Origin: Cyanophora paradoxa CCMP329
Lineage: Eukaryota > Plantae > Glaucophyta
Direction: 5' to 3'
NCBI GenBank assembly: GCA_004431415.1
Contig: QPMI01000542.1
Span: 1-64,000 of the forward strand
Length of the DNA stretch: 64,000 bases
The notes below the pieces were generated by a model. The model worked only from the letters and a program-made list of their open reading frames with translations, was not told the origin of the DNA and ran no database searches. The position numbers were made by a program, and so were the translations under genes. Shown piece after piece: positions 4,201 to 27,285 of the stretch (position 1 is its first letter; every line of letters starts with the position of its first letter).

Positions 4201-4268
4201 TTACGAAGTGGGCAGAGGAAATAGATTAACAACGCTTTCGGAATCTCTTAGACTCTGGCGAATTTTCC

Positions 4269-4732: not shown

Positions 4733-4761
4733 CAATAGGATAATTTGACGGAATAAATTAA

Positions 4762-6932: not shown

Positions 6933-6981
6933 CTTTACTTAACTCAAATTTAATAAATCTCTATAAGTAGAGTAAACAGGG

Positions 6982-9900
6982 ATGAGTTTCAATTACCCAG
7001 CAAACCTACAAACCATTCCCTCATCAGGAAGAGGGAAGACAGATAACAAACATGTAAATTTCGATAACTTGACAGCCAGAGGGTCGATCTCTATTGACCA
7101 CAGTGCAGATGAACCTCAAAGACTCACCCAAGAGAGCATGCACTTTCAATAAACGAAATGGATCCTGAAAAAGAGGATGTGAGTGTTGCTTTCAGCATGG
7201 GAATGTGAAATCGAATCAGGTAGCCCAGATTAAAGCAACCAGGAGCAGACCAAGAAAACTGAAAACCAGTGGAACCCACCCAGATATTCCAACTCGATTC
7301 GATAGTGGAAGGTTGATATTCAATGTTCAAAACGAGAAGGGTGGGCATCAGAGTGGTTTGAGAATCTATAATGAAGGATCAAATGCAATTGCACAAATTC
7401 CCGAAATATTACAGATAGCCCCCCATGGAGAAACCAACAAAATCGAGTTCACTAACAATGTTTATCCACGAGATATTGTGGCGAATTCGGCTTCTAATGC
7501 GCAATTCGGTTTCCAATTACCAGGTGATACAGCAAAGAATAAGGCGTCTATCACTGTCAACAGTAGCCCCACTCAACCAGTAACAATTCATTTACACCCA
7601 GACCTTGTCGAAATGGACAGGCACCTTTTACCTTTGGTAACCAACACCAAAGATCTTGGTATCAGAACCAGGCAATGGCGAAATATCCATGGAAGCAATG
7701 TGTATGCAAATGGTGAGAAACTGGTAAGTGAGAAGACCATAAGAGAGATCTTTGAATATTATGGACCTAATGGACCTGTCCCAGTTCCCTTTCCTCTTCC
7801 ATGGGATCCACCAGATTTAACACCCAAAAAGCAACCAGGAAGAGAGTATACAGCAGATGAGACAGTTCCCTTTGGGCAGCACATTGTGAGTTGGGAGCAG
7901 GTTCGAAATAAACCGATAATTGAACCAAGAAAGCAGATTGATGAGCAATATTTACCTCCTGAAATCGACATATTGGAGCTTGATGATTACTACTTCGTCC
8001 CAGATGAGGAGGAATACCTACCTGATGGTTTCGACCCACAGGAATATGAATATGATCAATATGAACCCAATGAGGAAGAGTATTTACCAGATGGTTTAGA
8101 TCCACAAGAGTATGAGTATGAGCAAAATTATGAACCCCATGAGGAATATTTAGCAGATGGTCACGAACCACCAGTTGTTGATTATGAGCAACCATATGAA
8201 CCCCATGAAGAATTATTACCAGATGGATTTCGACCTGAGATTTGGGAATTCTTCCCTGATTGGGAGCAGATCAACAATAAACCAGCCAGATTTCCACCAG
8301 AGGATCACAACCATGACTGGGATGAGATATTAGGTAAACCAGACAAATTCCCACCAGAGGATCACAGGCATGACTGGGGTGATATTGATGGAAAACCAGA
8401 AGAGTTTCCACCAGAAGATCACAGACATAAATGGAGCGAAATAGATGAACAACCAAAATTCGCATCAGCAGGTGATGATTTCGACACCTTACATGGTGTT
8501 ACTCTCTACCAAAGTAACACCATACCAGAGAGATTACGATTAGATGAATATTATGTGAATCGTAAAGGGATTGATGCAGGCACCACAATGGAAGGCGAAT
8601 TATACATCAGACCACCTACAAGAATGCAGATAATTGCAGCAGGCGGAAATTTCGGTTTGATGGACACCAAACCAGGTATCTATTTAACCAGTTACTATGC
8701 TGATGACATCCCAATGACAGATAGTTTAATATTATCGCTTCCATCTGATCCAGCAAACTATGATGATAAAGATGCAGCAATACAAATTAATGTTACTGAT
8801 GTGAGTGATTTAGATTCATCAAGACCCAAATTAATATTCACCAGAGAGAGACTGTTACCCAATGCTCTCATTGGAAATCGAGATGACTACAAGAGATGCG
8901 AAATCTCATGGATCAAAACAAATTATAATGGTGGAGTGGGTGAGGGTCTCTTAGAAATCAATCAGAGGGCAGCAGCAAAGAATATTCACAATGAGACCAT
9001 ATCAAGAGTGGTGACAGAGGATTACCTACAAGCCCAAAACTACATAGATGAAACAGAATTGAACACAATCATTGCAGGTATTAATATTGGTGTGACAGGT
9101 GATTACCTCCCTCTCACAGGTGGGATTATTGATGGAACAGTAACAGCATGCAACTTCTTTGTTCATACTGAAAGCAATCAAACCTTCCCTGTGGTTCATC
9201 CAGGAGGTGAGTATGAGATACCAGATGATCCAGCTATAATGCCCATCAAGATTGATCTACCTTCTGATTATGTTGGAAGGGGTGAACTGAAAATAATCGC
9301 TTTTACAGGAGACTATAATGATCTCCTAAACAAACCAACTGCTGCAAATCTGCACCCTGTTGCATTTTCGGGTAGTTTCCTTGATCTGAATAACAGGGCA
9401 CACACCCACACAAGAGCAGAGATCACAGATTTCAATACTCACACTCACACAAAATCCCAGATAACAGATTTTGCACACACCCACACCAGAGCAGATATTA
9501 CGAATTTCGCTCACACTCATGTTAAATCAGAGATAACAGATCTCGGAAATGTTGCATATGTTGGTCACACCCATACGAAGGCAGAGATTACAGATTTTGC
9601 ACACAATCACACTAAGGCAGAGATTACAGATTTTGCACACACTCATGATTGGAATACAGATATTTATAACAAACCAGCGATTTTCTCGGGCAACTACAAT
9701 GACCTGACCAATAAACCCACCCTCGATCCCTTTACAGCAACCACCATCAGAGCGAATAACACAATGTATGTAGGATCAGGTCAGATTGTAGAACCAGCAG
9801 GACCTATGTTTGAAGAAACATGGTTCTTTCACAATTCGCAAAATTACTTTGATAAAACCTTACTTGTTCGTGGAAATGCTTATGCAAGAAATTTCTATGC

Positions 9901-10278
9901 TATGAACCCTTCCAATAATCAGACTATTAGTAGATGTATCACAGAAGCAGATCTTTCCAGTCAACTCAATGCATATTTCAATGGGAAAATTCAAGCAGGA
10001 AAGTATGTTTACACTACTCCTGTTTTGAATTACAATAATTTATATGTGTTCAATCTAACTATCTATTTTACCAATGCCTTTGCTTCTCCTCCTGTTGTGA
10101 CAGCAACAGTAAGGCATGAAGGACAAGAACCAAATTATCAAGTAACTCCCGTCGTTTTACTGTGAATTTGTTGAATGTTTACAGTGATTATTTCACTTGT
10201 GAACTTTTCACTGATCCATATGCAATGAATAATTCATCCAAAACTGTAACGATCCATTACATTGCTGTCGCAATTTAA
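6982..10278 (+). CDS. Long phage-type tail-fibre-like protein with HxH repeats and a lectin-like tip; frameshifts near 7130-7200 and ~10150
   Basis: Core ORF 7205-10165 contains HxHxWxxIxGKPxxFPPxD repeats, GDYNDLLNKP motifs and ~7 HTHTKAEITDF repeats. The C-terminal YFTNAFASPPVVTATV continues in another frame to TIHYIAVAI* at 10278. ATG at 6982. Confidence 0.8.
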
Positions 10279-10297
10279 CTATTTCGTAATTATAAAG

Positions 10298-11365
10298 ATG
10301 ACCTCTCTATTAGAAATCCCAAACTATGAACTTGCAGCCAAATCACTTCATAGCACCTCTCATGGAGTAGTTGATTCAACCCCTGGGTATATTTGCACTG
10401 AAACTTCAAGTAATACCTCTTTCACAGAGAAAAACATACTCAGATTCAAAGAAATTCGATGTGATCGAAATGGAGGCAAGATAAGAACCACAGGCATTAT
10501 TATCTCGAATAAAAATCAAGTTCAAGCAGGTCAAGTAGTCCCCGATTCAGCAGTATATGATAATGTGGGTGGATTCACCACAGCACAGATAGTTAATTTC
10601 GATAACACAATAAATAATTCGGCTCTTGTAGTCAGAAGTGGAGGTGCCTATATTGGCGATGGGGCAATTGTGGTGGGGACTGTCACAGCAAATCAGTTGA
10701 CTGTGAATGGGACAAGTGTTTTCACTCAGTTGATGAATATTACCTCTGGTCTTTTAGGAAATATTGTCTATGGGACTCTTCAAGCATTTCTGAGAGTTCA
10801 AGCACCCGAAATTGGTAATGGAACAGATTCTAATACGACCTACAAACGAAATGGTAATGCAATTGTCACTCTTGAAAAAACAACAGTTGCACAGACAGAG
10901 ATAAAATCATTTACACTTTCTCCTACTTGCTATTTGAAAAGGACCTACTGCCCAAGATTGTGTATCACAAAAGTAACTAATCCTCCGACATCACAAGTAA
11001 CATGGTCATCTGGCGCTCGTCTTACTTTTACATTCCCTACATATGGAAGTTATTATGTCAACAATGAAGGCAACTGGGGAACCTACATGTTTACTGCACC
11101 TGTTGCAGGTGTTTACAGGGTTTTCTTTACAGGTCTCAGAATAGATACTCAGACTTCTTATGTTACTATTTTAAAGCTTTCAATAAATGGAGTTGCTTCC
11201 AGTTACGAAGTTGGCTGTTCATTAACAGGACAAATGGCTATCACATATGAAACATTAGTTACTCTGAACATGGGAGACACTGTTGGAATATTAAACTCAA
11301 CAGGTGTGACTATAACATTTGACACACGATGTTACTTGGGGGTTTATCTGGTTAGTGCTATATAA
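10298..11365 (+). CDS. Fibre/spike protein paralogue 1: shared N-terminal domain plus C1q/TNF-like head
   Basis: ATG at 10298 after TATAAAG. KEIRCDRNGG..SGGAYIGDG is shared with three neighbours. Head: MFTAPVAGVYRV..LNMGDTV..LGVYLV. Confidence 0.8.
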   Translation: MTSLLEIPNYELAAKSLHSTSHGVVDSTPGYICTETSSNTSFTEKNILRFKEIRCDRNGGKIRTTGIIISNKNQVQAGQVVPDSAVYDNVGGFTTAQIVNFDNTINNSALVVRSGGAYIGDGAIVVGTVTANQLTVNGTSVFTQLMNITSGLLGNIVYGTLQAFLRVQAPEIGNGTDSNTTYKRNGNAIVTLEKTTVAQTEIKSFTLSPTCYLKRTYCPRLCITKVTNPPTSQVTWSSGARLTFTFPTYGSYYVNNEGNWGTYMFTAPVAGVYRVFFTGLRIDTQTSYVTILKLSINGVASSYEVGCSLTGQMAITYETLVTLNMGDTVGILNSTGVTITFDTRCYLGVYLVSAI

Positions 11366-11387
11366 TATTGTATATGTAATATAAAGA

Positions 11388-12413
11388 ATGGCTACTCAAA
11401 TAGCAGTCCCTGTTTTCTGTTATGCAGCCCCTAAAATACACCAACTTCATCACACAGTCTCAGATGCAACCCCAGGTTTCATTTGCACAGAAACAACAGG
11501 AGCAGATTCATTTTCGCAGAACTCTGTGATCAGATGCAAAGAAATTCGATGTGATCGGAATGGGGGCAAGGTGAGAACCACAGGTCTCATTGTTTCCAAC
11601 AAGAACCAAGTTCAATCAGGTCAAATTGTTTCTGATTCCGCAATTTATGATGATGTTGGAGGGGTCACCACACCCAAGATTGTAACCTTCGATAATACAA
11701 TCAATAATGCTGCTCTTGTTGTCAGAAGTGGAGGGGCATACATTGGAGATGGAGCAAGGATTAATGGGAATCTCACAACTGAGCAAATCACAGTAACAGG
11801 AGGGAGCACATTTAATGATTTGGTGACAGCCAATGGTGGTGTATATGTTCCTGGTGCACAGCAATCTATTGTGACAGCAAGTACCAAAATAGTTACACCT
11901 GAAATAGATACAGGATCGAGCACAAATCTGGTTTTTAAACGCAATAGTGACGTTATGGCGACACTGGAAGCCAACAGTTTAACCCTCAATTCAGGTTGTT
12001 ATTTAAAGTATGATTTTCAACCTCGATTCTGTGCACAACTTGGTTACACACATGTTGCTTCAAGTGCTGCTCCTCTGATCAACTGGACAACAGTTTTTAT
12101 AGACAACAGAGGTGCCTTCAATACAGGCAATGGAAGATATACAGCTCCTGTTGCAGGACATTACAGATTAACTGTAAATTCTTCCTCAACAACTTCAACA
12201 GCTGTAAGTCTGACTTTGCAGGTAAACGATACTAACCCTGGTGGTCTGACCATCTTCACATCTGGAACTTCAACTACAATTGCAGCGAAACCTCTATATA
12301 TCAACGTTATACTCAATCTTGCTGCCGGAGAATATGTCACAATTGTCACAGGAACAGCTGGTAGTTATGCAAGTCGAACAACATTTACAGCTGAACTTCT
12401 AAGTATCACATAA
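11388..12413 (+). CDS. Fibre/spike protein paralogue 2: shared N-terminal domain plus C1q head
   Basis: N-terminus highly similar to paralogue 1. C1q signature PRF..DNRGAFNTGNGRYTAPVAGHY..LNLAAGEYV..TTFTAELL. Confidence 0.85.
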   Translation: MATQIAVPVFCYAAPKIHQLHHTVSDATPGFICTETTGADSFSQNSVIRCKEIRCDRNGGKVRTTGLIVSNKNQVQSGQIVSDSAIYDDVGGVTTPKIVTFDNTINNAALVVRSGGAYIGDGARINGNLTTEQITVTGGSTFNDLVTANGGVYVPGAQQSIVTASTKIVTPEIDTGSSTNLVFKRNSDVMATLEANSLTLNSGCYLKYDFQPRFCAQLGYTHVASSAAPLINWTTVFIDNRGAFNTGNGRYTAPVAGHYRLTVNSSSTTSTAVSLTLQVNDTNPGGLTIFTSGTSTTIAAKPLYINVILNLAAGEYVTIVTGTAGSYASRTTFTAELLSIT

Positions 12414-12435
12414 ATTTTCTCTCTATAATGTAGGA

Positions 12436-12702
12436 ATGTCGAATATCTACCAAGTGGTTCTCTCAGATACTGAGAAGTTGGGAATGGAATATTGCTGCGC
12501 ATCTGTTCAGGACTGGATTGATAATGCTGCCCACAACAGGGCAAGAATCGCAATTGATGAGATTGTTCAGAAAGAGATCCAATCTTGCATCTCATCAGGA
12601 GTTCAGATACCAACCTCAAAGGAAGCCATTGTGTTACAGGCATTCCAAAGGGGAACTGTAAAGAAAGGCATCGAGTATAACAATGTCACAGAAGAGCAAT
12701 GA
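12436..12702 (+). CDS. Small phage-like protein, putative fibre assembly chaperone
   Basis: 88 aa. The motif LSDTEKLGMEY..VQDWIDNAAHNRARIAIDEIV resembles small proteins I recall lying beside C1q-type fibre genes in marine tailed phages (from memory, not searched). Confidence 0.65.
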   Translation: MSNIYQVVLSDTEKLGMEYCCASVQDWIDNAAHNRARIAIDEIVQKEIQSCISSGVQIPTSKEAIVLQAFQRGTVKKGIEYNNVTEEQ

Positions 12703-12737
12703 ACATTATTTTTCTATCCTTCTTAGTAAAAGAAGCA

Positions 12738-13583
12738 ATGGGTGAATACAATCGAGTTCAACTGCCTATATATTCCCTTGGATCCCCTGCAATGCATTTT
12801 CGCCAGCATGAAGTAAATGATGAGGTTCGTGGTTTAGAATCCACAGAGAGACCCAATTCCAATGGTAACTCCTTTGATAAGAACTCAATTATTCGAGTTA
12901 AAGAACTGAGAGCAGACAAGAATTCTGGGGTTGTTAAAACAACTCGACTCCTTGTCTCAAATGCGAACTTCTTCCAACCAACTAATGGAGGTCCTGATGC
13001 TTACAGTGTTGATCTGAAAGCCCTCGATTTCGATAAGAATTCTGCTGCTGTAACTGTGAGATCAGGTGGAGCATTTATTGGTGGTGGTTGCAGAGTTTCA
13101 GGTCAACTCTCCTCATCAATTGCATACAATGATGTCCCAGATACTCTTGAACAGAATGTTGAAGACCCCCAACGAATTCGATTATATATACCAGTTGCAC
13201 AACAGCCACTTATTCAATTTTACCAAGGTTATACTGTCACACTTGAAAACTCTGAATTGATTGAAGGAACCAAAAGAGTAATGAGAGGGCTGGTCATTCC
13301 TTCTGCAATGCTTTCTTTATGTAGAGCCAACAATAACCAGCCAGGTCACAGATACAATTTCAGTGTTCAAGGATATGATCATTTCGGCACAGGGTTCTGT
13401 GTTTATAATAACAATTTCACCTATGATCTGTTTGTTACAGATATTGGAAAATATACAATTACAGTTATGGGTATCAGAACAGATATAGCTGCTGTCTCAG
13501 CTCTAAGAGGTGTTACTCCTGATACTCTTTCTCAAACAGGGTTTTACCAGGAACCAGATGTGATTGATAACCCAACCCCATAA
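12738..13583 (+). CDS. Fibre/spike protein paralogue 3: shared N-terminal domain plus putative autochaperone-like C-terminal domain
   Basis: KELRADKNSGVVKTTRLLVSN..SGGAFIGGG. C-terminus GYDHFG..GKYTITVMGIRTDIAA is shared with paralogue 4. Likely ATG at 12738 (alternative 12699). Confidence 0.75.
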   Translation: MGEYNRVQLPIYSLGSPAMHFRQHEVNDEVRGLESTERPNSNGNSFDKNSIIRVKELRADKNSGVVKTTRLLVSNANFFQPTNGGPDAYSVDLKALDFDKNSAAVTVRSGGAFIGGGCRVSGQLSSSIAYNDVPDTLEQNVEDPQRIRLYIPVAQQPLIQFYQGYTVTLENSELIEGTKRVMRGLVIPSAMLSLCRANNNQPGHRYNFSVQGYDHFGTGFCVYNNNFTYDLFVTDIGKYTITVMGIRTDIAAVSALRGVTPDTLSQTGFYQEPDVIDNPTP

Positions 13584-13606
13584 ATTATATATCACTTTAA
13601 TGTAAA

Positions 13607-14434
13607 ATGGCTGCCCCAGTAGAGCGAATTATTACACCCCAGCTATCATTAGCAGCACCTGCAAATCACGTTTTGCAGCATGCTACTTTTGATGATGTAG
13701 AAGGTCTCCAATCCACAGAAGTCCAACCTACCATGAATACTTTTGGTTCCACCCACAAACTGAGATTGCAGGAACTCAGGTGTGATAAAAATAATGGTAT
13801 AGTTAAGACAACGAAACTCCTTGTCACCAATGCAAACTTTTCTGCCCATTATGGAGACCCAGACAGTTATGGTGCTCCTCTTTCTACTTATTCTTTTGAA
13901 TCTCGGTCGGGAGCTATTAACTGCAAAACGGGGGGAGCATATATTGGTGATGGTCTTCGGGTTGGTGGAGCTGTTGGTGCGCCTCTTTTCGTAAATGATC
14001 AACCCAATCCCATTGATCCCAACACCAGAATTCGCACCTATGTCCCCAGTATGAATGCACCATACATTATAAAGATCTTCCCAATTGTTGTGAATGAGCA
14101 GACATCAGTAGTAGATTCTCTTGTTGAGATTGGTGATCACTACAAGGTGGTTGTCGATATTCCACCAGATGTTTATGCTGTCTGTCAAGTAGAGGGTGGA
14201 ACCCCAAATATTGCAGTTGTGATCACTCCATATGACAATTTCGGAATCGCTTATCATGGTGTGAATTTCGGTCTTGAAGATTACCAGTTCTTGGTGAGAG
14301 CCACCAGATTTGGTATCTACAAATGCATTCTCTATGCTGAGAGAACCGATGCTATTGCAAAACAGAATACATATGCAGAATATTACGGCACAAATCGCTA
14401 CTTCCCCATTTTCGGGCAGGATACTGCTCCATAG
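13607..14434 (+). CDS. Fibre/spike protein paralogue 4: shared N-terminal domain plus putative autochaperone-like C-terminal domain
   Basis: QELRCDKNNGIVKTTKLLVTN..TGGAYIGDG. C-terminus TPYDNFGIAY..GIYKCILYAERTDAIA. Confidence 0.75.
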   Translation: MAAPVERIITPQLSLAAPANHVLQHATFDDVEGLQSTEVQPTMNTFGSTHKLRLQELRCDKNNGIVKTTKLLVTNANFSAHYGDPDSYGAPLSTYSFESRSGAINCKTGGAYIGDGLRVGGAVGAPLFVNDQPNPIDPNTRIRTYVPSMNAPYIIKIFPIVVNEQTSVVDSLVEIGDHYKVVVDIPPDVYAVCQVEGGTPNIAVVITPYDNFGIAYHGVNFGLEDYQFLVRATRFGIYKCILYAERTDAIAKQNTYAEYYGTNRYFPIFGQDTAP

Positions 14435-14461
14435 AAATCTCAGGTATATATAGAGAGAGGG

Positions 14462-14734
14462 ATGGATGATAAAACAAAGAAATTCATAGAATCTGCAATG
14501 ATGGTTCATGGTGATGCTAAATTCGATTATAGTGCGACAGTCTATAAGAAAGCACAAGAGAAGGTCTCTGTTAGATGCCTCAAATGCAACAAGATCCTCC
14601 AAACCTACCCATTTAATCATGTAAGGGGAAGTGGATGCAGAGAGTGCAACAAGAAATCCTCTCATGCTTACAGAAAAAAGACTACATCAGGAATTGTGAT
14701 AGATGATAAACCAGTGGTATTATATTTCGATTAG
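14462..14734 (+). CDS. DUF723-like zinc-binding DNA-binding protein (homing-endonuclease-associated module, no nuclease domain)
   Basis: FIESAMMVHGDAKFDYSATVY..VSVRCLKC..PFNHVRGSGCREC matches the HG-YDYS-V-Y..C..P-NH--G-GC--C module. Confidence 0.75.
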   Translation: MDDKTKKFIESAMMVHGDAKFDYSATVYKKAQEKVSVRCLKCNKILQTYPFNHVRGSGCRECNKKSSHAYRKKTTSGIVIDDKPVVLYFD

Positions 14735-14920
14735 ATCTTTGAGAGAGAAATGAGAATCTTTCCCCATTTTCCCTTTGTGATTATGCATGTGTCAAAGCAG
14801 TTTGGACAGGTCTTGTGGTAGTGCAGCAGAATGATATCCACCAACTCATAAGGTAGCACTCTTGCTAAGATGGTTCGCATTCTACCAATCGCGTTTTTAA
14901 TTTTTCTAAATTATTCATAA

Positions 14921-15322
14921 ATGAATACTCATCGAGGCTTCCATGTGATGCTGGATTACAAATTCAGAACCCAATTAGCAGTAGGAGTGGAAAACTTGGA
15001 GACAACAACCAGGTGGTTAATGCAGTTCTTGCAAACTATTATTCAAGAGCAAGGTATTCGAGTAGTTCACAAGCATTGCGAGATTTTCGATGGTGGTATT
15101 TCTCCTCCTGGTTTTGCAATGGTTCTTCTGCTGGATGAGAGCCATTGCACTGCTCATTGTTACTCAAATGAAGGTATGTTGGCGATTGATATATTCAGTT
15201 GTGGATTAGAAGCAGAGAGGAAAACCACGAGAGTATCTCATGAGATAGATGAGAGAATAACAGGTGTGTTTTCAGGGTTGGAGAAATCGGAGAAACATAG
15301 AGTATTGCGATTTCCGAGTTAG
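14921..15322 (+). CDS. speD: S-adenosylmethionine decarboxylase proenzyme (short prokaryotic/viral type)
   Basis: 133 aa. GFHVMLD near the N-terminus, then PPGFAMVLLLDESHCTAHCY..LAIDIFSCG with the E-S-H self-cleavage (pyruvoyl) site and the catalytic Cys motif. Confidence 0.9.
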   Translation: MNTHRGFHVMLDYKFRTQLAVGVENLETTTRWLMQFLQTIIQEQGIRVVHKHCEIFDGGISPPGFAMVLLLDESHCTAHCYSNEGMLAIDIFSCGLEAERKTTRVSHEIDERITGVFSGLEKSEKHRVLRFPS

Positions 15323-15352
15323 TTGACACTGAGAAATTCAGAATTTCAGATG

Positions 15353-15835
15353 GTCTTACTGAAAATGGTCAGATAATCGGGTGTGACACCTATTTAATTG
15401 ACTGTGACGCCTCTTTAATTGACTGTGACGCCTGTGACGCCTGTGACGCCTACTTTCAAACTTTTTAAAATTTTCAAAAATTACAGACTTCTGAAAACAG
15501 CCGTCACAGCCGTCACAGGCGTCACACCCAATTAAAAATGGAATCTCTTTCTCTTACTGAGATATTCAAAAATATATTCTTGTCTTACTGAAATCCGTCT
15601 TGTGACACCTCTGACACCTACAAAACACTATCCATTAATCAACCTTTTTGAAAATGCGAAGTTGTCTTACTGGAAATGGTCTGCAATTTTGCTGTGACAC
15701 CTAATTTAATTGAGTGTGACGCCTGTGACGCCTGTGACACCTACTTTCAAACTTTTAAAATTTTCAAAAATGACAGACTTCTGAAAACAGGCGTCACAGC
15801 CGTCACAGGCGTCACAGACATTCCACCCTCTTACT
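15353..15835. repeat. Duplicated iteron-like cassette: (TGTGACGCC)n, AT-rich spacer, (GGCGTCACA)n; candidate replication origin
   Basis: Two near-identical blocks (~15353-15530 and ~15663-15820). Each has converging 9-mer repeats around ctactttcaaactttt..ttctgaaaac. TCTTACTG motifs recur on the flanks. Confidence 0.8.
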
Positions 15836-15928
15836 GACTTTCTCAAAAACAAAACTATCTCTTACTGAATATCATTTGAATACTACCTGTCACACTTGAT
15901 CTCAATTATTCTGTTTTATAGAACATAT

Positions 15929-16190
15929 GCAATCTAATCGAATGTTCAATTGGAGACCATGCAACTCTGTGACACTTTTTTCAATCTAAAATATACATCC
16001 GCAATCTCATCGATTGTTTAATTGGAGACCATGCAGTTCCGATATATTCCAATAGAAAATCCCGCAATCTAATCGATTGTTTAATTGGAGATAATGCAAC
16101 TCTGTGACACTTTTTCGGTGCAAAAATGTACATCAGCAATCTCATCGATTGTTCAATTGGACACAATGCAACTCTGTGACACTTTTTGCG
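15929..16190. repeat. Subterminal ~65-70 bp tandem repeat, 4 copies
   Basis: gcaatct(a/c)atcgattgtt(c/t)aattggagaccatgcaactctgtgacactttt at ~15929, 16001, 16064 and 16136. Confidence 0.85.
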
Positions 16191-16507
16191 TTTTTCGATA
16201 CAGAATGGGCGGTGGTCTACTTCAATACATGAGAGATATATCGAGTTTATGCGAATTTATGCAATTTAATCGCGATTATATCGATCTTTAAGTAGTTTAA
16301 TGTTAATCTATCGCAGATTTGTATGTAAACAACAAAGTACATAATCAATCGATATAAGATCAATTGAATCTATCGAAGTTTAATCGAAAATATGCATTTT
16401 GGAAAACGCGTTTTCGTTTTTAATACAAAGTTTGCATTATTTTATACAAAGTTTGCATAAAAAGTTAAAGAAATTAATCGAAAAATATGTATTTTAGTAT
16501 TAAATTA

Positions 16508-16592
16508 ACACATATTGAAAAACGAATTTAAATCCAGGAGCGAAGCGCGAAGCGCGAAGCGGAGGGATTTAAATTCGTTTTTCAATATGTGT
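16508..16592. repeat. Perfect 28-bp inverted repeat with a (GCGAAGC)3 loop at the element end
   Basis: acacatattgaaaaacgaatttaaatcc (16508-16535) pairs with ggatttaaattcgtttttcaatatgtgt (16565-16592). The loop is agga-gcgaagc-gcgaagc-gcgaagc-ggag. Confidence 0.95.
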
Positions 16593-16889
16593 GGCTTGAG
16601 CATCTGAGCGACGCCCGCCAGATCTATCAATTGCAATTATCACTTATATATAATTATGCTCTTTCACGCATCGATATCTTGCAATTGCGATCGAATATGA
16701 ATGCATATGTGGGTTTTACGAAATTTTGTAATTCGCGATTGGGCGCACTTGAACACTCGCATCCGAACTCTGAGCGCCCTATATATCTATATATAGCTAT
16801 ATCTATAGCCTACGTATACATCTAATTATGAAGGCCTGCCCGGCCCCGGGCCCGGCTGCGCAGTGCGCATATGACTGATGCCTTCGAGA

Positions 16890-18859: not shown

Positions 18860-21800
18860 TCACTCGTCCCCCCCCGGGAGCCACAGGCGCACGGCGGGCT
18901 CGGGCGCCTCCCCGTCCCCCTCGCCGGCCCCGCCCTCGCCGGCCTCGAGGCGCACGCCACCCTCCTGCTCCAGCAACAGCGCGAGCTTTGCGGACATCAC
19001 CGTCGCCCCGTCGTACTGCCAACCGTTCGCGCGGTCACGAGGGAGGCCAGAGGGCCGGGGCGAGTCGGAGAGCACCTTGCAGCCACGGAACTCCTGCGCG
19101 CGCTTCGTGCCGATGCGCCTGGCACAGAACACGCGCTGTGGGGGAGCAGGCGGGCGGTCAGACAGAAAGACGCCTGCAGCTGGAGAAGAAGAAAGGGGAT
19201 GGCAGCGGCCAGCCTGCCAGCCTGCCAGCCCCGCAGGTGCGCGTGCGCACGGGGAGAGTCGAGACGTTGATGGTCCCGTCGGGGCGACCGACGGCGATCA
19301 GGCCCCGCCCGCCCAGCGCGCCCTGCACAAAAGGCAGTCTAAGAAGGGGATCCGCCAGTCCTTATTTTGCAGAGGACGCACCTCGGCAACTGTGAACGAA
19401 GGAGATTCGAATTCAAATCCATTCAGAAGGAGCGGCAGGTTCATAATTCTTCGAAAAGGTTCCCATTCCGATCCATCCGACTTTCCGGATTGCAGCCCGT
19501 GCTCCTTGTCTACCTCATTCGACCCATCTGATTCCGATCCATCTGACTCCTCGAATTGCAGATTCTCCTCCCTGTCCACAGTCTCTGCCGACTGCCAGCG
19601 CCACACGTACGCCGGCGCCGCCTCCTCTCCTATTCGAGGGCGAATGCGCAGCGCCGCTGCATCCTGTCCACCCATGATGTGAGAAAGCAAAACCTCAATC
19701 GAATCGCGCATATGCCCAATCAAAGAAAAAACCTTTGAAAAGGCAAGTTTGAACTCAAATTGGGTATATATTTTCGGCGGAGGGAACTTCGTTCTTGCAA
19801 GCTCCGCCCCGCTCTCCAGGTCCCACACCCGCAGCGTCGTGTCCTCGCTCCCTGACACAGCGCGCTTCCCGTCCTGCGACCCGCCGATAGGCCCCCGAGG
19901 CCCCCGAGGTCAGCCTCGGGCCCCGGCCCCCGGCCCGCCCCCCGCGCACCGGCGAGATCGAAACCGAGCGGATCGCGTCCTCGTGACCCGCGAGGCACCG
20001 CAGCTCCGCCCCGCTCTCCAGGTCCCACAACCGCAGCGTCCTGTCGTGGCCCCCCGACACGGTGCGCTTGCCGTCCTGTGGTTTGCAGAAACCCCAAGGC
20101 TCCCAAGATCAGCCTCGGGCCCCGGGTTCCGGCCCCCCGGCCACCCCTCGCGCACCGGCAGGATCGCCAGCGAGAAGGCGAAATGCCCGTGGCCCGCGAG
20201 GCACCGCAGCTCCGCCCCGCTTTCCAGGTCCCACAACCGCACCGTGTCGTCGTCGCTCCCCGACACGGCGCGCTTTCCGTCCTGCGGATTGCAGAGACCC
20301 CAAGGCTCCCAAGATCAGTTTCGGGCCCCGGGTTCCGGCCCCTCCCTTCGCGCACCGGCGAGATCGCAACCGAGTTGACCGGGCACTCGTGGCCCGTGAG
20401 GCGGCGCAGCTTCGCCCCACTCTCCAGGTCCCACAACCGCAGCTGCAGCGTGTTAGCCTCCCTCCCCGACACGGCGCGCTTCCCGTCCTGCGGCCCGCCG
20501 AGAGGCCCCCAAGGCCCCCGCAATCAGCATCCGGACACAAGCCCCGGCCGCACCCCCCGCGCACAGGCGAGAACGCCACCGAGATGACCCTGTCCTCATG
20601 ACCCTCGAGGCACCGCAGCTCCGCCCCGCTCTCCAGGTCCCACACCCGCAGCGTCGTGTCCTCGCCCCCAGACACGGCGCGCTTTCCGTCCTGCGGCCCG
20701 CCAAGAGGCCGCCGAGGCTCCCGCAATCAGCATCCGGACCCAAGCCCCGGCCGCAACCCCCGCGCACAGGCGAGATCGCCACCGAGATGACCCTGTCCTC
20801 ATGACCCTCGAGGCACCGCAGCTCCGCCCCGCTCTCCAGGTCCCACACCCGCAGCGTCTTGTCCTCGCCCCCTGACACGGCGCGCTTCCCGTCCTGCGAC
20901 CCGCCGAGAGGCTCCCGAGGCCCTTGCAATCAGCCTCGGGCCCCAATTGCAAGCCCCCGCCCGCTGCCCGCGCACGGGCGAGATCGCCACCGAAGTGACC
21001 CCGCCCTCATGGCCCGCGAGGCGCCGCAGCTCCGCCCCGCTCTCCAGGTCCCACACCCGCAGCGTCGTGTCCTCGCTCCCTGACACAGCGCGCTTCCCGT
21101 CCTGCGACCCGCCGAGAGGCTCCCGAGGCCCCCGAGATCAGCTTCCGTCCCAAAACCAAGCTCGTCCCCCGCGCACCGGCGAGATCGCTACTGCGCCGAC
21201 ATCGCGCTCGTGGCCCGCGAGGCACCGCAGCTCCTCCCCGCTCTCCAGGTCCCACACCCGCAGCGTCGTGTCCTCGCTCCCTGACACCGCGCGCTTCCCG
21301 TCCTGCGGCCCGCCGAGAGGCTCCCGAGGCCCCCGAGATCAGCTTCCGTCCCAAAACCAAGCTCGTCCCCCGCGCACCGGCGAGATCGCTACTGCGCCGA
21401 CATCGCGCTCGTGGCCCGCAAGGCGCCGCAGCTCCGCCCCGCTCTCCAGGTCCCACACCCGAAGCGTGCTGTCGCCGCTCCCTGACACCGCGCGCTTCCC
21501 GTCCTGCGGCCCGCCGAGAGGCCCCCGAGGCCCCCGAGATCAGCTTCCGTCTCGAAACCAAGCTTATCCCCAGCGCACTGGCGAGATCGCTACTGCGCCG
21601 ACATCGCGCTCGTGGCCCGCGAGGCACCGCAGCTCCTCCCCGCTCTCCAGGTCCCACATCCGCAGCGTCTTATCCCAGCTCCCCGACAAGGCGCGCTTCC
21701 CGTCCTGCGACCCGCCGACAGACCCCCGAGGCCCCCGCAATCAGCCTCAGATTCCGAGCCCCGGCCCGCCCCCCGCGCACCGGCGAGATCGCCACCGAGA

Positions 21801-24800
21801 TGACCCTGTCCTCATGACCCTCGAGGCACCGCAGCTCCGCCCCGCTCTCCAGGTCCCACATCCGCAGCGTGCTGTCGCCGCTCCCTGAGACCGCGCGCTT
21901 CCCGTCCTGCGGCCCGCCGACAGACCCCCGAGGCCCCCGCAATCAGCCTCAGTCCCAAAACCCGGCCCGGCCCCCAGCGCACGGGCGAGATCGCCACCGA
22001 AGTGACCCTGCCCTCGTGGCCCGCGAGGCGCCGCAGCTCCGCCCCGCTCTCCAGGTCCCACACCCGAAGCGTCTTGTCGGAGCTCCCCGACACGGCGCGC
22101 TTCCCGTCCTGCGGCCCGCCGACAGACCCCCGATGCCCCCGCAATCAGCCTCAGATTCCGAGCCCCGGCCCGCCCCCCACGCACCGGCAAGATCGCCACC
22201 GATGAGACACTGCCCTCGTGGCCCGCGAGGCACCGCAGCTCCGCCCCGCTCTCCAGGTCCCACACCCGCAACCTCTTGTCGCTGCCCCCTGACACGGCGC
22301 GCTTCCCGTCCTGCGGCCCGCCGACAGACCCCCCATGCCCCCGCGATCAGCCTCAGATTCCGAGCCCCGGCCCGCCCCCCACGCACCGGCAAGATCGCCA
22401 CGGAGGAGACCCCGTCCTCGTGGCCCGCGAGGCGCCGAAGCTCCACTCCACTTTCCAGGTCCCACACCCGCAGCGTGCTGTCGCCGCTCCCTGACACGGC
22501 ACGCTTCCCATCCTGCAAGGCGCAGAGAAGCCCGAAGGCCTGGAAATCAGCCTCGGGCCCCGCGCGTCATCATATTCTTTGCAACGCACCCGAGTAATAG
22601 CGACAGCATTCACATAATCTTCGTGCCCCCGGAGTGCCGGGTTGAGTGTGACGCTGCAGTCCATGAGCACGGCCCCGCGAAGGTCCGCCCCGGCGAGGTT
22701 CGCGTCGAGGAGGCTGCAGCCCGTGAGGTCCGCCCCACGCAGGTCCGCCCCCGCCGCCTCCAGCCGCTGTAGATCGGCCCCGGGCACGCGCACGCGTCGA
22801 AGGCTGCTGCCCGCAAAGCTGTAGCCCGCTGCGGACAGTGTCAACAGCGTTGCGATCGCGAGCAAGTAGACCGCACCGCGGTTCAGGATTGTCATGGCGT
22901 TGGCAGAAGCGGTGATGTCTCCTGGCGTGGCGTCTTCGCGGCGGCTCCTCTCCATCAGCTCCAGCAGTTTCTGCGCCGGACTCCGATGTCGAAGCAAGCA
23001 ATGTGATGAGACGCATGCACAGCGGCGCAGCGCACGTCGCGGTAGTCGACGTCGGCGGTGCAGCAGTCGGCGAGGAACTGGAGGATCTTCGGCTCCTTCG
23101 TCAGCAATCTGGTCCCAGCAACGCCAACACGTGTGAATGCCAGGCAGGAAATTAAAGCGAAACTTGCGAATGCTGCACCGCAGGTGGAGGAGGCTGGGGT
23201 CCGCCCGCATAACAGCGGCGCTGCCGTCGGCAATGCTCTGCGCCCGGCGCAGGGCCTGCAGCTTCGCGTGTGGCCGGGCACGCTCCTCATGCGGGGCTGC
23301 CCCGACCTCGCCCTCGATCGCCTGGGAAGCGGCGAAGACGCACGTTCGAGCTGTGCGCATGCATTGGCAGGAGTCGCGATCCAGGCGCACCGATCGGAAC
23401 GCGTTGGCGCCGTCGGCGTACGCCCCCTCCGCGACAAAGTACTCCAGGAGCGTCTGCCGCGGGCGTCAGAACAAGGGACGGCGCCGCGGAGCGGGCGGGC
23501 CTTGTGGAGGAAGCGGACGGCCGTGCCGCCGTCGGCCGCCCGGGCGACGCGCAGCGGGCAGTTGTCGCGGCAGAAGGCGAGGACGGGGTCCGACGTGTAC
23601 GTGAGGAGCTCGATGCAGAGCCGGAGGTCAGCGCCCTGCGCGCCCTCCGCCGGCACGGCCGCCATCGACGTCGCATCCGCCGCCTTCGCACTGCGAGGAA
23701 CGTACTGCGCGCCCTTCGCCTTCTTTGGAGGGCAGAGCACTTCGGAGACGGCCGCCTGCACAGCCCCTGCCATCGGCCGTGAACGGTGCGGAGGGCGGAG
23801 GGCCCGCACTCGGAACATGGCGTCGGCAAGGTCCTTGCAGTACCCGCGGGAGTACTCCTGGAAGTCGCTCAGCGTCCAATCCTTCAGGTCGCCTGGCGAC
23901 GGAATCACGTGCACGTGTCAGATCACGAAATCAAAGCGATCACTGAGGTCCAGACAACAGCTATTCATGAGTCTCAAAAAAAAACAATCAGCCCGTACCC
24001 GTCTCCTTGGCCGCCAACGTCGACTTGTCCCACTGACGCTTGAACCACAGCTGCCCACGAACGCCGTCAGCCGTAATTCGCCCGGCGGCCCATGCCCAAC
24101 GGGGCGGCAGCGCCCCGGCGCACCTCGACGAACTGCTGGTAGAGCTCGCGGATCGTCAGGAGGTACGACGCGGCGGCCTTGGCCGGCGCGTTCTCTGAGT
24201 GGGCCGCCTCGCTGCGGAATGACGAAGTTAGTTGCAGCCGTTGCGGAGCGGCACGGAAAGCGGGGCTCACCGGCTCTTTAGTATCTTAGGCAGCGATTTC
24301 ACGACCATACTGCGCGCCCCGAGGCGACGGCAATCGTCAGGCATGAGTCGGCAAGGATCATCGGATCGGACGCACGTGAGCGTGAAGGGGTTCTCGATGA
24401 GCGTCGCGGTGCCGGGGACCTGCGCGATGCGCGCCGCGTACTCCTCCGCCGTCCACGTGCAGTCCAGGTCCCGCGAGCCCTCCAGCGCCGTGGGCCCGTA
24501 CATGCCGACGTACTTCGACACATACACTCCCACCTGCGGCAGGCTTCGGATAAGAGAGCTAGTGGCTGAAAGAGGCGCGAGCGGGCTCGCGGGCGGACCT
24601 GCTCCGAGTCGAACGGGTGGGTGCAGACCTCCTCGAGCGCCCCGCGATCGCCCCCCGGCGCGAACAGCGCCTGCGGGGAGGTCGCTTGGCGTGGCGGGGC
24701 GGGGCGGGCGGGGCTGCGGAGGGCCGAGGGGCGGCGCACGGGGTAGTCGGGCTGGGCGGCGAGGTACGCCGAGCGGCACGTGACGACGACGGCGGAGGCC

Positions 24801-27285
24801 CACTTGCCGAGCTCGTTGCCGTTCCAGAGGGCCGGCGGCCGGCCGACCCCAGTCTCCAGCTCGTCGTACGCGTCCAGCAGCAACACCAGCCCGCGGCTGC
24901 GCACAAGAATCGTCGAGATACGAAGGGTGGGCCGGCGGCGTGGGCACATGTGTAGCACCTGTCCCGCAGGGTGGGCAGGTCGGCCTCGGGCAAGCCGAGG
25001 ACGCCGGCCGCCTCCGCCCGCAGCCCGCTCGCCGCCCGCTCCCGCGTGATGTTCGAGAGGCGCAGAAGGCACGTGACGGGCAGCCGGTCGTCGTCGCCGG
25101 CCGGCGGGCGGCCGTCCGCCCCGGCCCACTGCTCGCAGGCGCGGCGGTGCAGGTGCGCGAGGAAGGTCGACTTGCTGGAGCCGGGCTCGCCCGCGATGAG
25201 GAGCACGCGGGCGCCGCCGGCGGGCGCGGCAGGGGCAGTGTCCGCAGACCCTGCCCCGCCCCGGGCGGGGAGGCGGCGGCGGAGGAAAGCGTCGACGTGG
25301 CCGGCGAGGTCGACGACGTTGCGGCGGGCGGCGTCCGTCGTCGCCTTTGGGTGCACGTACAGCGCCAGCGCCTGCGCCGCGTCCTCGTCGCCCGCCTCCG
25401 CCTTTGCGTACTGCGCCCGGCCCGCGAGTGAGGGGCGAGGCGGGAAGCTCCGCCTCCAGCTCCGCCAGGTGCCCGCCCTCCGCCAGCGCCGCCACCAGCC
25501 GCGCCCGCCGGTACCTGCGCCCCGCCGCTCGGCCTCGCGGTGCGGCCGCCCGGGCCGGGCGGGCGGGGCGGGGGCGGCACCAGCACTTCTTGCCCTGGAG
25601 GTCGTCGGCGCCGACGAGCTGGCGGAGGTCGGCCCAGAACTCCCGCACGTCCTCCAGCACCCCGGCCCCGTCCACCGAGCCCGCCGCCTCCTGCCCGCTG
25701 GCCCCGGTCGGGCGCGCGCCGGCGCAGGGCGCGCGGGGAAGGGAAGGGACTTTGGCGGCGGCGACGAGCTCCATGGCGGTGGTGACGCCGAAGCTGGAGA
25801 CGCCGTCGAAGACGACCTTGCCCGCCCGGTACAGCTTGTACACCACCCGCCCTGCCCGCCCGCCCCCGCCACGGTCAGCTCCCGGCGTCACCCGCCGCCC
25901 CGCGCCGCGCCGCGCACCGAGGGCCTTGGCGCGGCCGAGGGCGTTCTGGAGCGGGTCGTAGTCGGAGCTGGCGGCGGCGAGGGCCTGCCGCGCGAAGCTC
26001 GCCGCCGCCTCCGCGCGCCACCAGCCGCAGCCCTCGAAGCCCCTCAGCAGCGCGTCCAGCTCCTTGGCCGCCCCTCGTAGCTCAGCGCCGGCGCCTCTGC
26101 CGCCGGACGCTCGGCGCTCGGCCGGCGCTGCGCGAGCGCGCGCGGGGGCGGGCGGCGGGCGGCGGCGCACCGTCCGAGTCGAAGCCGGCGCCGCTGCCGC
26201 GGGCCTCGACGGCGGCGAGGGCGGCCGGCACGAGCCGCAGCGATGCCAGCGCGTCCACGTCCCCCGGCGAGGCCGCCCCGACGCCCCTCAGCTGCGCCCG
26301 TGTCAGGCGGCGGCCGCCGGCGCCGGGCGGGCGGGGCCGGGGCGGGGGCCGGGGCGGGGCGGGCCTGCTCGGCGCAGAACTCGACGAGGCGGGCGCGGTC
26401 GGTGGAGGTCAGCGTGCCCCGCGGCAGCCGCCCGAGCACGCCCGCCAGCGCCCCGACGCGCGCCGGCGGCACCCGCGCCAGCACCGTGCTCCGCCGCAGC
26501 GACAGCAGCACGTCGAGCAGCTGCGGCGCGGCGTCGGGGGATGAGGGCGGGGCGGGGCGGGGCGGGGGCGGCGCGGGGCGGGCGCAACGCTGCGGGAGAG
26601 CTCGGCGTCGCCCGAGAGGACCACCGCGCACGCGTCCGCGAGCTCCGCCGGCGACGGGATCGCCTTCTCAGCGAATAGCTCCAGCGCTGCGCGCGCGGGG
26701 CGGCCCGCCCGCCTGAGCCACGGGCGCGGGCGCGCGGGCAGGCGGGGCGTCGCCGGGTCCGGGCGGGCGGCGCGGACCTGCGCGGCACGCTTCCCTCGCG
26801 GCCTCCAGCGCCTTGCTCACGTCGCCCCCGAACTGCCTCTGGACGACGGGGAGTTCCAGGGCGAGCCGCGGCGCGTCGGGCCCGGCCGGCGCCGCCGCCG
26901 CCTCGCGGAGGAGCCCGCAGAGGCCCGCGAGCTGCGCGACCGAAGTGGCGTCCTCCAGCGCACTCAGCCTCCTCAGCTCGTCGGCCCCGCACACCCACGC
27001 AAGTCCGGTCACGGTCGCAGTCGAGGCTTCGTGTGCATGGGCGCTGAACGGAGTTCTCGTGCGCGCCTCTGCTACCGCTGCTGGGATTGCCGGCGCGGCG
27101 CTGACGGTCGTGGAGGGATTGCCAGCTGCAGCGGGGCCAGGCCCGCCCGCGCCAGGGGAAGTTCGGGCTTCGACCTCGGGCGAAACTGGGGCCGCGCGAG
27201 GCACTGCGCCCGTGCCGGTACCAGCGCTAGCAGCTGGAGCCGACGATGCGTTCGAAGGCGTGGGCGACGAAGCCCCGCAACCCAT
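18860..27285 (-). CDS. NLR-like NACHT / pentapeptide-repeat / WD40 protein (multi-exon), with a predicted N-myristoylation site
   Basis: Start MGCGASS. Walker [16 protein letters not shown] (~25190), Walker [11 protein letters not shown] (~24870), [23 protein letters not shown]|[19 protein letters not shown]. Pentapeptides [22 protein letters not shown]. Then 14 WD40 exons, a degenerate WD ([13 protein letters not shown]) and a terminal exon ..[18 protein letters not shown].. ending at 18860. Introns are GT-AG. Confidence 0.88.
19790..22515 (-). repeat. 14 tandem ~201-209 bp exon+intron units, each exon encoding one WD40 repeat
   Basis: WDLES core at ~19811, 20013, 20219, 20419, 20628, 20831, 21039, 21240, 21441, 21642, 21844, 22046, 22248 and 22450. 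Junctions read ..ATC TCG CCN|gtgcg..cag|GAC GGG AAG (phase 0). Confidence 0.95.

What the first reader, a model, noticed from the sequence alone, without database searches (positions are those of the whole stretch)
19790..22620. NLR-like receptor with one WD40 repeat per exon: a recombining, splice-ready variable array
There are 14 units, enough for two 7-bladed propellers. Each is typically a 126-nt phase-0 exon ([24 protein letters not shown]) plus a ~75-nt intron, and the introns are also homogenised. The scaffold is nearly invariant while two surface patches vary. After SG: SGDS, GSDK, SSDK, SWDK, SEDT, GEDK, GEDT, SDDD, GHDR. After GH: EDGVS, EGSVS, EGRVT, EDRVI, ERDVG, EGGVT, ECPVN, GHFAF, EDAIR. 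These correspond to the diversified positions in fungal HET-E/D NWD receptors. The halves are mosaic: SGDS pairs with EDGVS, EDRVI and ERDVG, and EDRVI pairs with SGDS, GEDK and GEDT, implying crossovers in the conserved core. Symmetric exons allow in-frame skipping, duplication and shuffling, as described for brown-algal TPR/LRR genes. Inference: a diversifying immune-receptor system in a protist, 2 kb from a provirus.
Basis: partly seen in the sequence, partly recalled or inferred. Interest (0 to 1): 0.85.

Follow-up and report, generated by a model that had tools for sequence, protein, structure and literature searches.

The report
Recombining WD40 sensor, glaucophyte NLR-like gene
An NLR-like gene of the alga Cyanophora carries 14 near-identical WD40 blades, with an intron in each full repeat, that have swapped sequence and vary at the same four surface positions as fungal non-self receptors; diversity likely comes from DNA recombination rather than alternative splicing, and this copy is probably broken by a frameshifting deletion.

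Summary
The array is real: 13 full repeat exons (12 of 126 nt, one of 132 nt), a 75-nt half repeat and homologous 74-82-nt introns, on the minus strand. It belongs to a transcribed ARM-NACHT-like-pentapeptide-WD40 gene of Cyanophora paradoxa, one of at least 27 family members. The nearest named outside relatives are from Mortierella fungi and Mycoavidus bacteria. The four most variable codons match the four selected sites of fungal HET-E (omega 1.3-2.6 against 0.1; above 1 significantly in 2 of 5 tree set-ups). Recombination among units is strong (PHI p=5e-5), and the array has no positional match to that of its closest paralog. The 'splice-ready' reading is not supported. Exchanges break inside exons, exon borders cut through blades, symmetric exons follow from any exon-plus-intron duplication, and RNA contigs showed no skipping (a weak test). 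Spliced RNA contigs from two studies read across it unspliced, which frameshifts this copy. Nothing links the gene to the provirus. Verdict: a new, intron-bearing variant of HET-E-type repeat diversification.

The parts
18860..27285 (-). Whole gene: about 40 exons; N-terminal MGC motif, ARM/HEAT-like solenoid (truncated), NACHT-like NTPase, helical/winged-helix region, pentapeptide repeats, WD40 array, acidic insert, short C-terminal tail. Public annotation tig00021070_g17805 (P0001).
   Evidence: model by coordinates; spliced RNA contigs; P0001 carries the same 14 repeats
27262..27285 (-). Start MGCGASSP: likely N-myristoylation plus S-acylation motif (motif reading recalled). MG followed by Cys within five residues in 10 of 26 paralog models.
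25454..26686 (-). Exons for an ARM/HEAT-like alpha-solenoid
   Evidence: paralog P0031 model helical over 1-480, matches to HEAT proteins Z 10-12; weak ARM_5 hit in P0013, E 0.075
25411..25453 (-). Deletion junction: about 155-200 codons present in ARM-type paralogs are missing; read unspliced the frame shifts and stops at 24288
   Evidence: (37 aa against 192-236 in 11 paralogs), 16 table 8 (X17 record 4 and X19 record 17 bridge it), 86, 53
24376..25410 (-). NACHT-like P-loop NTPase exons: Walker [10 protein letters not shown] (Ser where Gly is usual), Walker [10 protein letters not shown]
   Evidence: AAA_16 E 3e-4; NACHT E 5.6e-5 to 0.13 in 5 paralogs, all below the curated cut-off
22590..22970 (-). 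Pentapeptide repeats and the first GH/strand-a half repeat
   Evidence: PF00805 E 4.8e-11; RNA X17 record 13
19874..22589 (-). 13 exon+intron units: exons 22387-22512, 22185-22310, 21983-22108, 21781-21906, 21579-21704, 21378-21503, 21177-21302, 20976-21101, 20768-20893, 20565-20690, 20356-20487 (132 nt), 20156-20281, 19950-20075, and 14 homologous phase-0 introns. Hypervariable exon codons 10, 12, 34, 36.
19799..19873 (-). 14th unit: 75-nt half repeat (strands b-d of the last blade), 99% identical to unit 8
18860..19798 (-). Acidic low-confidence insert, cryptic WD-like hairpin ([16 protein letters not shown]) and C-terminal tail shared with paralogs
   Evidence: (introns 19732-19664, 19381-19323, 19250-19136 spliced)
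1..16830 (.). Neighbouring AT-rich Polinton-like viral region; context only, no shown link

Best explanation
The array encodes a predicted double beta-propeller, the likely ligand sensor of a Cyanophora NLR-like (STAND) protein; its repeats have exchanged DNA, likely by unequal crossing-over or short gene conversion, and this copy is probably inactivated by a frameshifting deletion. Shown: near-identical exon+intron units; recombination among them with breaks inside the exon core; a constrained scaffold; four free codons per repeat at the HET-E positions; full turnover of the array since the split from paralog P0121. Inferred mechanism: an ancestral repeat carried one ordinary short intron, and tandem amplification and homogenisation copied exon and intron together, so the symmetric exons are a by-product. 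Exchange between misaligned units re-pairs the two top-face patches and keeps renewing the binding surface, as in Podospora HET-E/D. In intact paralogs, binding of a non-self protein would release the NACHT switch of a likely membrane-anchored receptor, which would signal through an N-terminal TIR-like or ARM-type module. Here the main transcript would stop before the sensor is read, so the intact repeats are either a recent relic or a donor pool for neighbouring paralogs.
For: PHI p=5e-5 at three window sizes, 61 informative sites. Mantel r: patch 1 vs patch 2 of the same exon 0.08 (p 0.28); patch 2 vs its intron 0.49 (p 0.0005). Identical tracts of 56-111 nt between units. Codons 10, 12, 34, 36 carry 6, 6, 7, 7 residues and flank the conserved D and V, 18 residues apart, as HET-E codons 7/9 and 25/27 do (PMC1805685). 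The model puts them in the b-c turn, the d-a loop and the start of strand a. The same four sites have the highest entropy (2.5-3.4 bits) over 42 repeats of 4 paralogs, with 42 of 42 distinct combinations. Omega 0.09-0.11 elsewhere against 1.3-2.6. Against P0121: flanks 88-93% identical, array diagonal 0.767 against off-diagonal 0.758, p 0.13. STAND fold: paralog model matches NLRP9, NOD2 and NLRC4, Z 12.4, 12.1, 12.0. 25 of 25 family members tested form one group, and TIR-type P0002 sits with ARM-type P0001/P0121. Break.
Against: Omega above 1 is significant in only 2 of 5 fixed-site set-ups, and M2a only on a single tree (p 0.002-0.013, against 0.33-0.68 with two trees). No repeat is identical between this gene and three paralogs at the protein level (best 93-95%), so exchange between loci is not shown. 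Intron to next-exon linkage is weak (r 0.32, p 0.02; lost when units 11-12 are dropped). No ligand, cell-death or immune phenotype is known. Pfam NACHT scores stay below the cut-off and the NTPase part of the model has pLDDT under 50. On the break: 40 joints were not displayed; one RNA-confirmed donor in this gene scores as low (-6.3) as the rescue donor (-6.0); no DNA run was laid over the junction.
Confidence: 0.62

Rival explanations
1. [quoted passage not shown]
For: All 13 full exons are phase 0/0 and multiples of three, so any skip stays in frame. Skipping is reported for one-repeat-per-exon LRR genes of brown algae (PMC11378527 passages). The RNA test was weak: listed pieces inside the array are 38-53 nt, while telling a junction apart needs 12-118 nt.
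Against: None of the 4 joints listed joins two array exons out of order. Symmetry is automatic when an exon+intron unit is duplicated. Other exons of the gene have median 110 nt, and more than half of its other introns are phase 0. Array donors are uniform GTGCG with a fixed branch distance. Exon borders lie inside blades and a skip would leave 13 blades. Introns of about 75 nt usually favour retention over skipping (own knowledge).
Confidence: 0.1
2. Neutral amplification: a recently expanded repeat whose exposed loop residues drift freely, with no selection for new specificities and no immune role.
For: With trees fitted to half or third exons, omega at the four sites is 1.3-1.5 and not different from 1 (p 0.18-0.44). 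The gene lies among inverted segmental duplications and is probably broken.
Against: The same four positions vary in four paralogs and in fungi. The array turned over while its flanks stayed 88-93% identical. The family shows many duplications and a TIR/ARM N-terminal swap. Omega is 2.3-2.6 when trees are not fitted locally to those sites.
Confidence: 0.15
3. Same recombining sensor, but this copy is functional: a 43-nt GC-AG intron at 25453-25411, or skipping of the two exons before it, restores the frame and gives an 1884-aa receptor with a shortened ARM solenoid.
For: The rest of the frame is open over 40 exons. A branch-like motif and CAG survive at the junction. Two other GC-type donors and a 47-nt intron in this gene have RNA support. 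The scaffold still shows omega 0.1.
Against: Two listed contigs from two studies end at the upstream acceptor, so are spliced there, yet run through the junction. 43 nt would be the shortest intron and its donor scores -6.0. The annotation's own rescue intron removes the LYV.PK motif kept in the paralogs.
Confidence: 0.13

Closest known systems
Podospora anserina HET-E/HET-D/NWD receptors with highly internally conserved WD40 repeats (PMC1805685 passages; PMC12222747 passages; PMC13449251 abstract, passages, section 12)
   Same: NACHT-type NTPase plus 42-residue near-identical WD40 repeats; the same four variable top-face positions; concerted evolution; two 7-blade propellers predicted; interchangeable N-terminal domains; broken copies that keep intact repeats.
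   Different: Glaucophyte alga. ARM-like or TIR-like N-terminus, not HET. Pentapeptide linker. An intron in every full repeat. Walker A with Ser before Lys. No genetics or ligand. The architecture is nearer the Mortierella/Mycoavidus family, so the shared variation pattern is likely convergent (inference).
NACHT-pentapeptide-WD40 NOD-like receptors of Mortierellomycota and Mycoavidus cysteinexigens (10.1101/2021.12.02.471044 and 10.1101/2022.03.16.484565, passages)
   Same: Domain order alpha-solenoid, NACHT, pentapeptide, WD40 and a short C-terminal tail. Nearest named outside relatives, 24-25% identity over the NTPase region.
   Different: The Cyanophora members form their own group (SH-aLRT 100, quick tree), are intron-rich, have G..G.SK[ST] where 118 of 125 motif-bearing profile hits have GK, and often start MG..C. 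Direction or donor of any transfer was not tested.
Brown-algal ROCO-LRR and NB-ARC-TPR exon-shuffling genes (PMC3341825, PMC11378527, passages) and Tetrahymena 90-bp-exon LRR genes (PMC6564038, passages)
   Same: One repeat-length exon per unit, single intron phase, and recent paralogs alike except in the array.
   Different: Closed WD40 propeller instead of an open solenoid. Exon border inside the structural unit. No inactivated or inverted exons in the 74-82-nt introns. Breaks map inside exons. Alternative splicing not shown.

Membership tests
NACHT-pentapeptide-WD40 STAND proteins (Mortierella/Mycoavidus type) | P-loop NTPase of NACHT type with Walker A and B | tested here: met
   Walker [10 protein letters not shown] and Walker B present; NACHT E 5.6e-5 to 0.13 in 5 of 5 paralogs scanned, below the curated cut-off; the profile retrieves Mycoavidus and Mortierella NACHT-WD40 proteins. 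The Gly-to-Ser change makes nucleotide binding uncertain.
NACHT-pentapeptide-WD40 STAND proteins (Mortierella/Mycoavidus type) | STAND helical and winged-helix module after the NTPase | tested here: met
   Model of paralog P0031: NLRP9 Z 12.4 (rmsd 4.3, 240 aligned), NOD2 12.1, NLRC4 12.0 (3.8, 212); Foldseek alone gave no E<=0.001
NACHT-pentapeptide-WD40 STAND proteins (Mortierella/Mycoavidus type) | Pentapeptide repeats followed by C-terminal WD40 propellers | tested here: met
   (2YMU best hit)
NACHT-pentapeptide-WD40 STAND proteins (Mortierella/Mycoavidus type) | One open frame joining N-terminus, NTPase and sensor at this locus | tested here: not met
   Deletion and unspliced RNA contigs at 25411-25453 give a stop at codon 746; a minor in-frame splice form is not excluded
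Podospora HNWD (HET-E/D/R) | N-terminal HET domain | tested here: not met
   No HET hit in the scans of N-terminal exon and paralogs; the N-terminus models as an ARM/HEAT solenoid; TIR-like in P0124, P0123, P0002
Podospora HNWD (HET-E/D/R) | High internal conservation of repeats (about 80-100%) | tested here: met
   Exon DNA identity 78-97% among the 13 full units; mean protein identity 0.78, at the lower edge
Podospora HNWD (HET-E/D/R) | Four hypervariable top-face positions flanking the conserved V and D | tested here: met
Podospora HNWD (HET-E/D/R) | Positive selection at those positions | tested here: inconclusive
   omega 1.3-2.6; p<0.005 in 2 of 5 set-ups, p 0.18-0.44 in 3 of 5; M2a tree-dependent
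Podospora HNWD (HET-E/D/R) | Repeat exchange within a gene | tested here: met
   PHI p 5e-5, mosaic units
Podospora HNWD (HET-E/D/R) | Repeat exchange between genes | tested here: inconclusive
   Cross-gene identity (0.76) equals within-gene identity (0.77-0.78) but no identical repeat among 3 paralogs compared; no paralog DNA available
Podospora HNWD (HET-E/D/R) | Ligand-triggered cell death or non-self response | not testable with these tools
   needs experiments
Brown-algal exon-shuffling receptors | One repeat-length exon per unit, one intron phase | tested here: met
   the exon is offset from the blade
Brown-algal exon-shuffling receptors | Whole exons as the unit of rearrangement; inactive or inverted exons in introns | tested here: not met
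   Exon halves unlinked, exon 3' half linked to its intron; introns too short to hold an exon, and no core-pattern hit outside the 14 units
Brown-algal exon-shuffling receptors | Alternatively spliced repeat isoforms | tested here: inconclusive
   No skip joint listed, but contigs inside the array are too short

The most novel reading that the evidence does not exclude
A unicellular glaucophyte runs a two-layer receptor generator: DNA recombination reshuffles WD40 blades within and between clustered NLR-like genes, with broken but transcribed copies such as this one serving as donor pools, and intact paralogs also skip symmetric exons to make many propeller isoforms from one gene.
Probability: 0.1. 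Interest if true: 0.82.

Novelty: new variant of a known kind. Interest (0 to 1): 0.5.

Why it matters
It extends HET-E-type hypervariable WD40 sensors to a culturable unicellular alga from an early branch of the plant lineage, in a family of at least 27 genes that my searches did not find described. The mechanism that keeps such repeats alike is stated to be unknown (PMC13449251, introduction passage). Here every full repeat carries a short intron, a nearly neutral tracer, so tract lengths, breakpoints and exchange between genes can be read from DNA. It is also a caution: one repeat per symmetric exon can arise by plain tandem duplication and is no evidence of splice-based diversification. 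The family-wide Ser in the P-loop, the lipid-anchor motif and the TIR/ARM swap are testable leads.

Tried and rejected
No whole genome is held for this window, so paralog exon structure could not be read. Indirect hints only: annotated P0121, P0002 and P0122 show mis-joins or read-through just before DGKR. No run is on record as RNA; X17-X20 are guessed RNA, and their contigs are spliced. The joint 19937-22739 (20-letter side, in all three RNA runs) was rejected as a likely chance match. Two 'go back' joints (22113 to 22010/22012) were rejected as isoforms: read by hand, their letters encode the EGQVNS and EAEVNS patches of paralog P0121. DNA run X1 shows no other letters or indels over 27 of 30 bins, but contigs drop rare variants, so this does not test heterogeneity within a clone. 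My first 37-exon model was revised to 40 exons (its last split is 2 nt off, which does not alter the protein), and its 43-nt intron was then doubted. Foldseek alone found no significant fold match for the N-terminal model. A scan of viral contigs gave 25 loci matching the pentapeptide part at 40-71% identity, taken as generic and not examined. The careful tree did not finish; the quick tree is quoted. No complex prediction was run, as there is no candidate ligand. A link to the provirus was rejected for lack of evidence: the family is spread over many contigs. Literature searches listed no paper on a Cyanophora NACHT-WD40 family or on WD40 arrays with one repeat per exon. The library lacks most subscription papers and I opened no supplements; those of PMC7145615 and PMC13449251 might list these proteins.


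Full report
OBSERVATION. The array lies on the minus strand between 22589 and 19799. It has 14 units, a TRF period of 202 with 13.4 copies, and a core pattern found 14 times against 0.01 expected. Twelve exons are 126 nt, unit 11 is 132 nt, and unit 14 is a 75-nt half repeat that continues in frame into acidic sequence. The 14 introns are 74-82 nt, start GTGCG, end CAG and carry a branch-like motif 34-37 nt from the end. Exon DNA identity is 78-97% among the full units. Intron divergence (p 0.25) equals synonymous divergence (p 0.23), so the introns behave as passengers of the same homogenising process.

THE GENE. Reading upstream by coordinates gives a gene from 27285 to 18860 of about 40 exons. 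Spliced contigs from four guessed-RNA runs of two studies support many introns, including GC-type donors. In the array only intron 22589-22513 and the next one are bridged; the 14-nt loose end fits exons 2, 3, 5, 9 or 11. The public model P0001 (tig00021070_g17805) has the same repeats. Seven relatives looked up by name carry Cyanophora paradoxa accessions, and 20 more have the same name format, giving at least 27 members among the listed hits of three searches. Domains: an MGC start (10 of 26 paralog models share it; the lipid-anchor reading is recalled), an ARM/HEAT-like solenoid, a NACHT-like NTPase with STAND helical module (paralog model matches NLRP9, NOD2 and NLRC4 at Z 12.0-12.4; Pfam NACHT below cut-off), pentapeptide repeats and the WD40 array (2YMU is the best sequence and fold match). 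The nearest named outside relatives are Mortierella and Mycoavidus NACHT-pentapeptide-WD40 proteins (family described in 10.1101/2021.12.02.471044 and 10.1101/2022.03.16.484565, passages). The 25 members placed on a quick tree form one group against 19 outside rows (SH-aLRT 100). All 23 of 26 paralog models with a Walker A match have Ser before the Lys, against Gly in 118 of 125 motif-bearing profile hits. P0124 has a weak TIR_2 hit (E 0.004), shared by P0123 and P0002 at 51-60% identity. P0002 groups with the ARM-type P0001 and P0121, which points to an N-terminal swap.

VARIABLE SITES. Exon codons 10, 12, 34 and 36 are the most variable (6, 6, 7, 7 residues); codon 33 follows with 5. They flank the conserved Asp and Val at 18 residues' distance, the layout of HET-E codons 25/27 and 7/9, which PMC1805685 places on the top face (passages). 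The AlphaFold model (mean pLDDT 76, pTM 0.45) has 14 four-stranded blades and puts codons 10 and 12 in the b-c turn, 34 in the d-a loop and 36 at the start of strand a. Solvent exposure itself could not be computed. Over 42 full-length repeats from this gene and three paralogs, these sites and codon 33 have 2.5-3.4 bits of entropy, and all 42 four-site combinations differ. Pairwise dN at six candidate sites is 0.81 against dS 0.27 and intron 0.30 (that six-site numbering was recalled). Likelihood models are less clear. M2a picks exactly the four sites on one tree (p 0.002-0.013) but is not significant with separate trees for the two halves (p 0.33-0.68). With the four sites fixed in advance, omega is 1.3-2.6 against 0.09-0.11 elsewhere, above 1 significantly in 2 of 5 set-ups. 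The sites are free of constraint; positive selection is likely but not proven.

RECOMBINATION. A PHI-type test gives p 5e-5, the permutation floor. The two patches of one exon are unlinked (r 0.08, p 0.28). The 3' patch is linked to the intron behind it (r 0.49, p 0.0005; 0.54 without units 11-12). Intron to next 5' patch is weaker (r 0.32, p 0.02; 0.13 without units 11-12). Identical tracts between units are 56-111 nt, and three of the seven cross an exon-intron border. Against the closest paralog P0121, flanking domains are 88-93% identical, yet repeats at the same position are no more alike than any other pair (0.767 against 0.758, p 0.13), and no repeat is identical between genes (best 93-95%). 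The array has turned over since the duplication; exchange between loci is plausible but not shown.

SPLICING CLAIM. Any tandem duplication of an exon with one intron gives symmetric exons, so symmetry is no evidence of selection for skipping (inference). The gene's other exons have a median of 110 nt, and 13-14 of 24 other introns are phase 0. The exon border lies in the a-b turn, inside a blade. None of the 4 joints listed joins array exons out of order; the two 'go back' joints encode P0121 patches (read by hand). The test is weak: listed pieces in the array are 38-53 nt and unique junctions need 12-118 nt. Brown-algal genes have inactive or inverted exons in their introns and reported splice variants (PMC3341825, PMC11378527, passages); this array has no room for such exons. 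Tetrahymena's 90-bp-exon arrays are attributed to unequal crossing-over (PMC6564038, passages), the closer parallel.

THE BREAK. Between two conserved anchors this gene has 37 residues, against 192-236 in 11 ARM-type paralogs (a 12th match at 836 was set aside as spurious). The junction near 25450 joins the start of one coding stretch to sequence lying just before the NTPase exon in P0121. X17 record 4 (25356-25512, no differences) and X19 record 17 (25162-25512) end at the upstream splice acceptor yet run straight through the junction. Read that way, the protein keeps 444 residues, shifts frame and stops at codon 746 (window 24288), before any in-frame NTPase or WD40. A 43-nt GC-AG intron would restore the frame, but it would be the shortest intron and its donor scores -6.0; 34 of 35 other donors score 2.9-10.8, although one real donor scores -6.3. 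Forty joints were not displayed, so a minor spliced form is not excluded. I put the chance that this copy is non-functional at about 0.8. Podospora NWD pseudogenes with intact repeats are a precedent (PMC1805685; PMC13449251, passages).

CONTEXT. Bases 1 to about 16830 are AT-rich and carry a frameshifted B-type polymerase, patatin, tail-repeat, C1q and AdoMetDC ORFs; the Polinton-like label is my reading. Between it and the gene lies an inverted 90.5% copy of part of the neighbouring gene. Nothing ties the receptor to the virus.

COMPARISON AND NOVELTY. It works like HET-E: same repeat length, same variable sites, concerted evolution. It is not an HNWD member (no HET domain). It files under the NACHT-pentapeptide-WD40 family as a probably broken copy. 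NLRs with highly conserved repeats are already reported across all domains of life (PMC13449251, section 12), and a 7+7 propeller model exists for HET-E (PMC12222747, passages). New here are the glaucophyte family, an intron in every repeat, the Ser P-loop and the lipid-anchor motif. Searches listed no description; PMC7145615 and PMC8891106 (passages) sampled a glaucophyte, and the passages shown do not describe this family. Supplements were not opened. Teng et al. 2023 (Plant J) was seen only as a reference entry.

VERDICT. Observation confirmed with corrections; interpretation partly supported; new variant of a known kind; interest 0.5.

Noticed in passing
window 1-16830: AT-rich (GC 0.37-0.43) Polinton-like region: frameshifted B-type DNA polymerase (about 560-2600), integrase-like split ORFs (3027-3877; label is my reading, no Pfam support), patatin fused to an F5/8 type C domain (5393-6814, minus), 986-aa tail-repeat protein, C1q/BclA protein, AdoMet decarboxylase; internal repeats at 4633-4965 and 15382-16187.
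   Followed up: partly
window 16893-18456 vs 30139-31726; 27548-28252 vs 35984-36683 and 39173-39560: Inverted partial copies (90.5%, 93.8%, about 75%) of the plus-strand neighbour gene flank the NLR-like gene; the copy at 16893 ends at the edge of the viral region.
   Followed up: partly
window 25159-25185 and paralogs: Walker A reads G..G.SK[ST] in all 23 Cyanophora paralog models with a match, against GK in 118 of 125 motif-bearing profile hits: a lineage-wide P-loop change of unknown effect.
   Followed up: partly
paralogs P0002, P0123, P0124: A TIR-like domain replaces the ARM solenoid; P0002 nests among ARM-type genes, suggesting an N-terminal swap.
   Followed up: partly
window 56499-57577: 10.5 copies of a 103-nt unit, 99% identical.
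   Followed up: no
window 60699-61581 vs 63118-64000: 883-nt direct duplication, 98.3% identical, running to the window end.
   Followed up: no
window 19382-19798: Lower-GC (0.51) acidic coding insert after the last blade, with an RNA-confirmed intron whose donor is AAG|GTTTTT; longer here than in P0121 and largely absent from P0002.
   Followed up: partly
window 32966-34900 and 36700-38700: Two intron-containing genes that look like F-box/LRR-type proteins by eye; not scanned.
   Followed up: no
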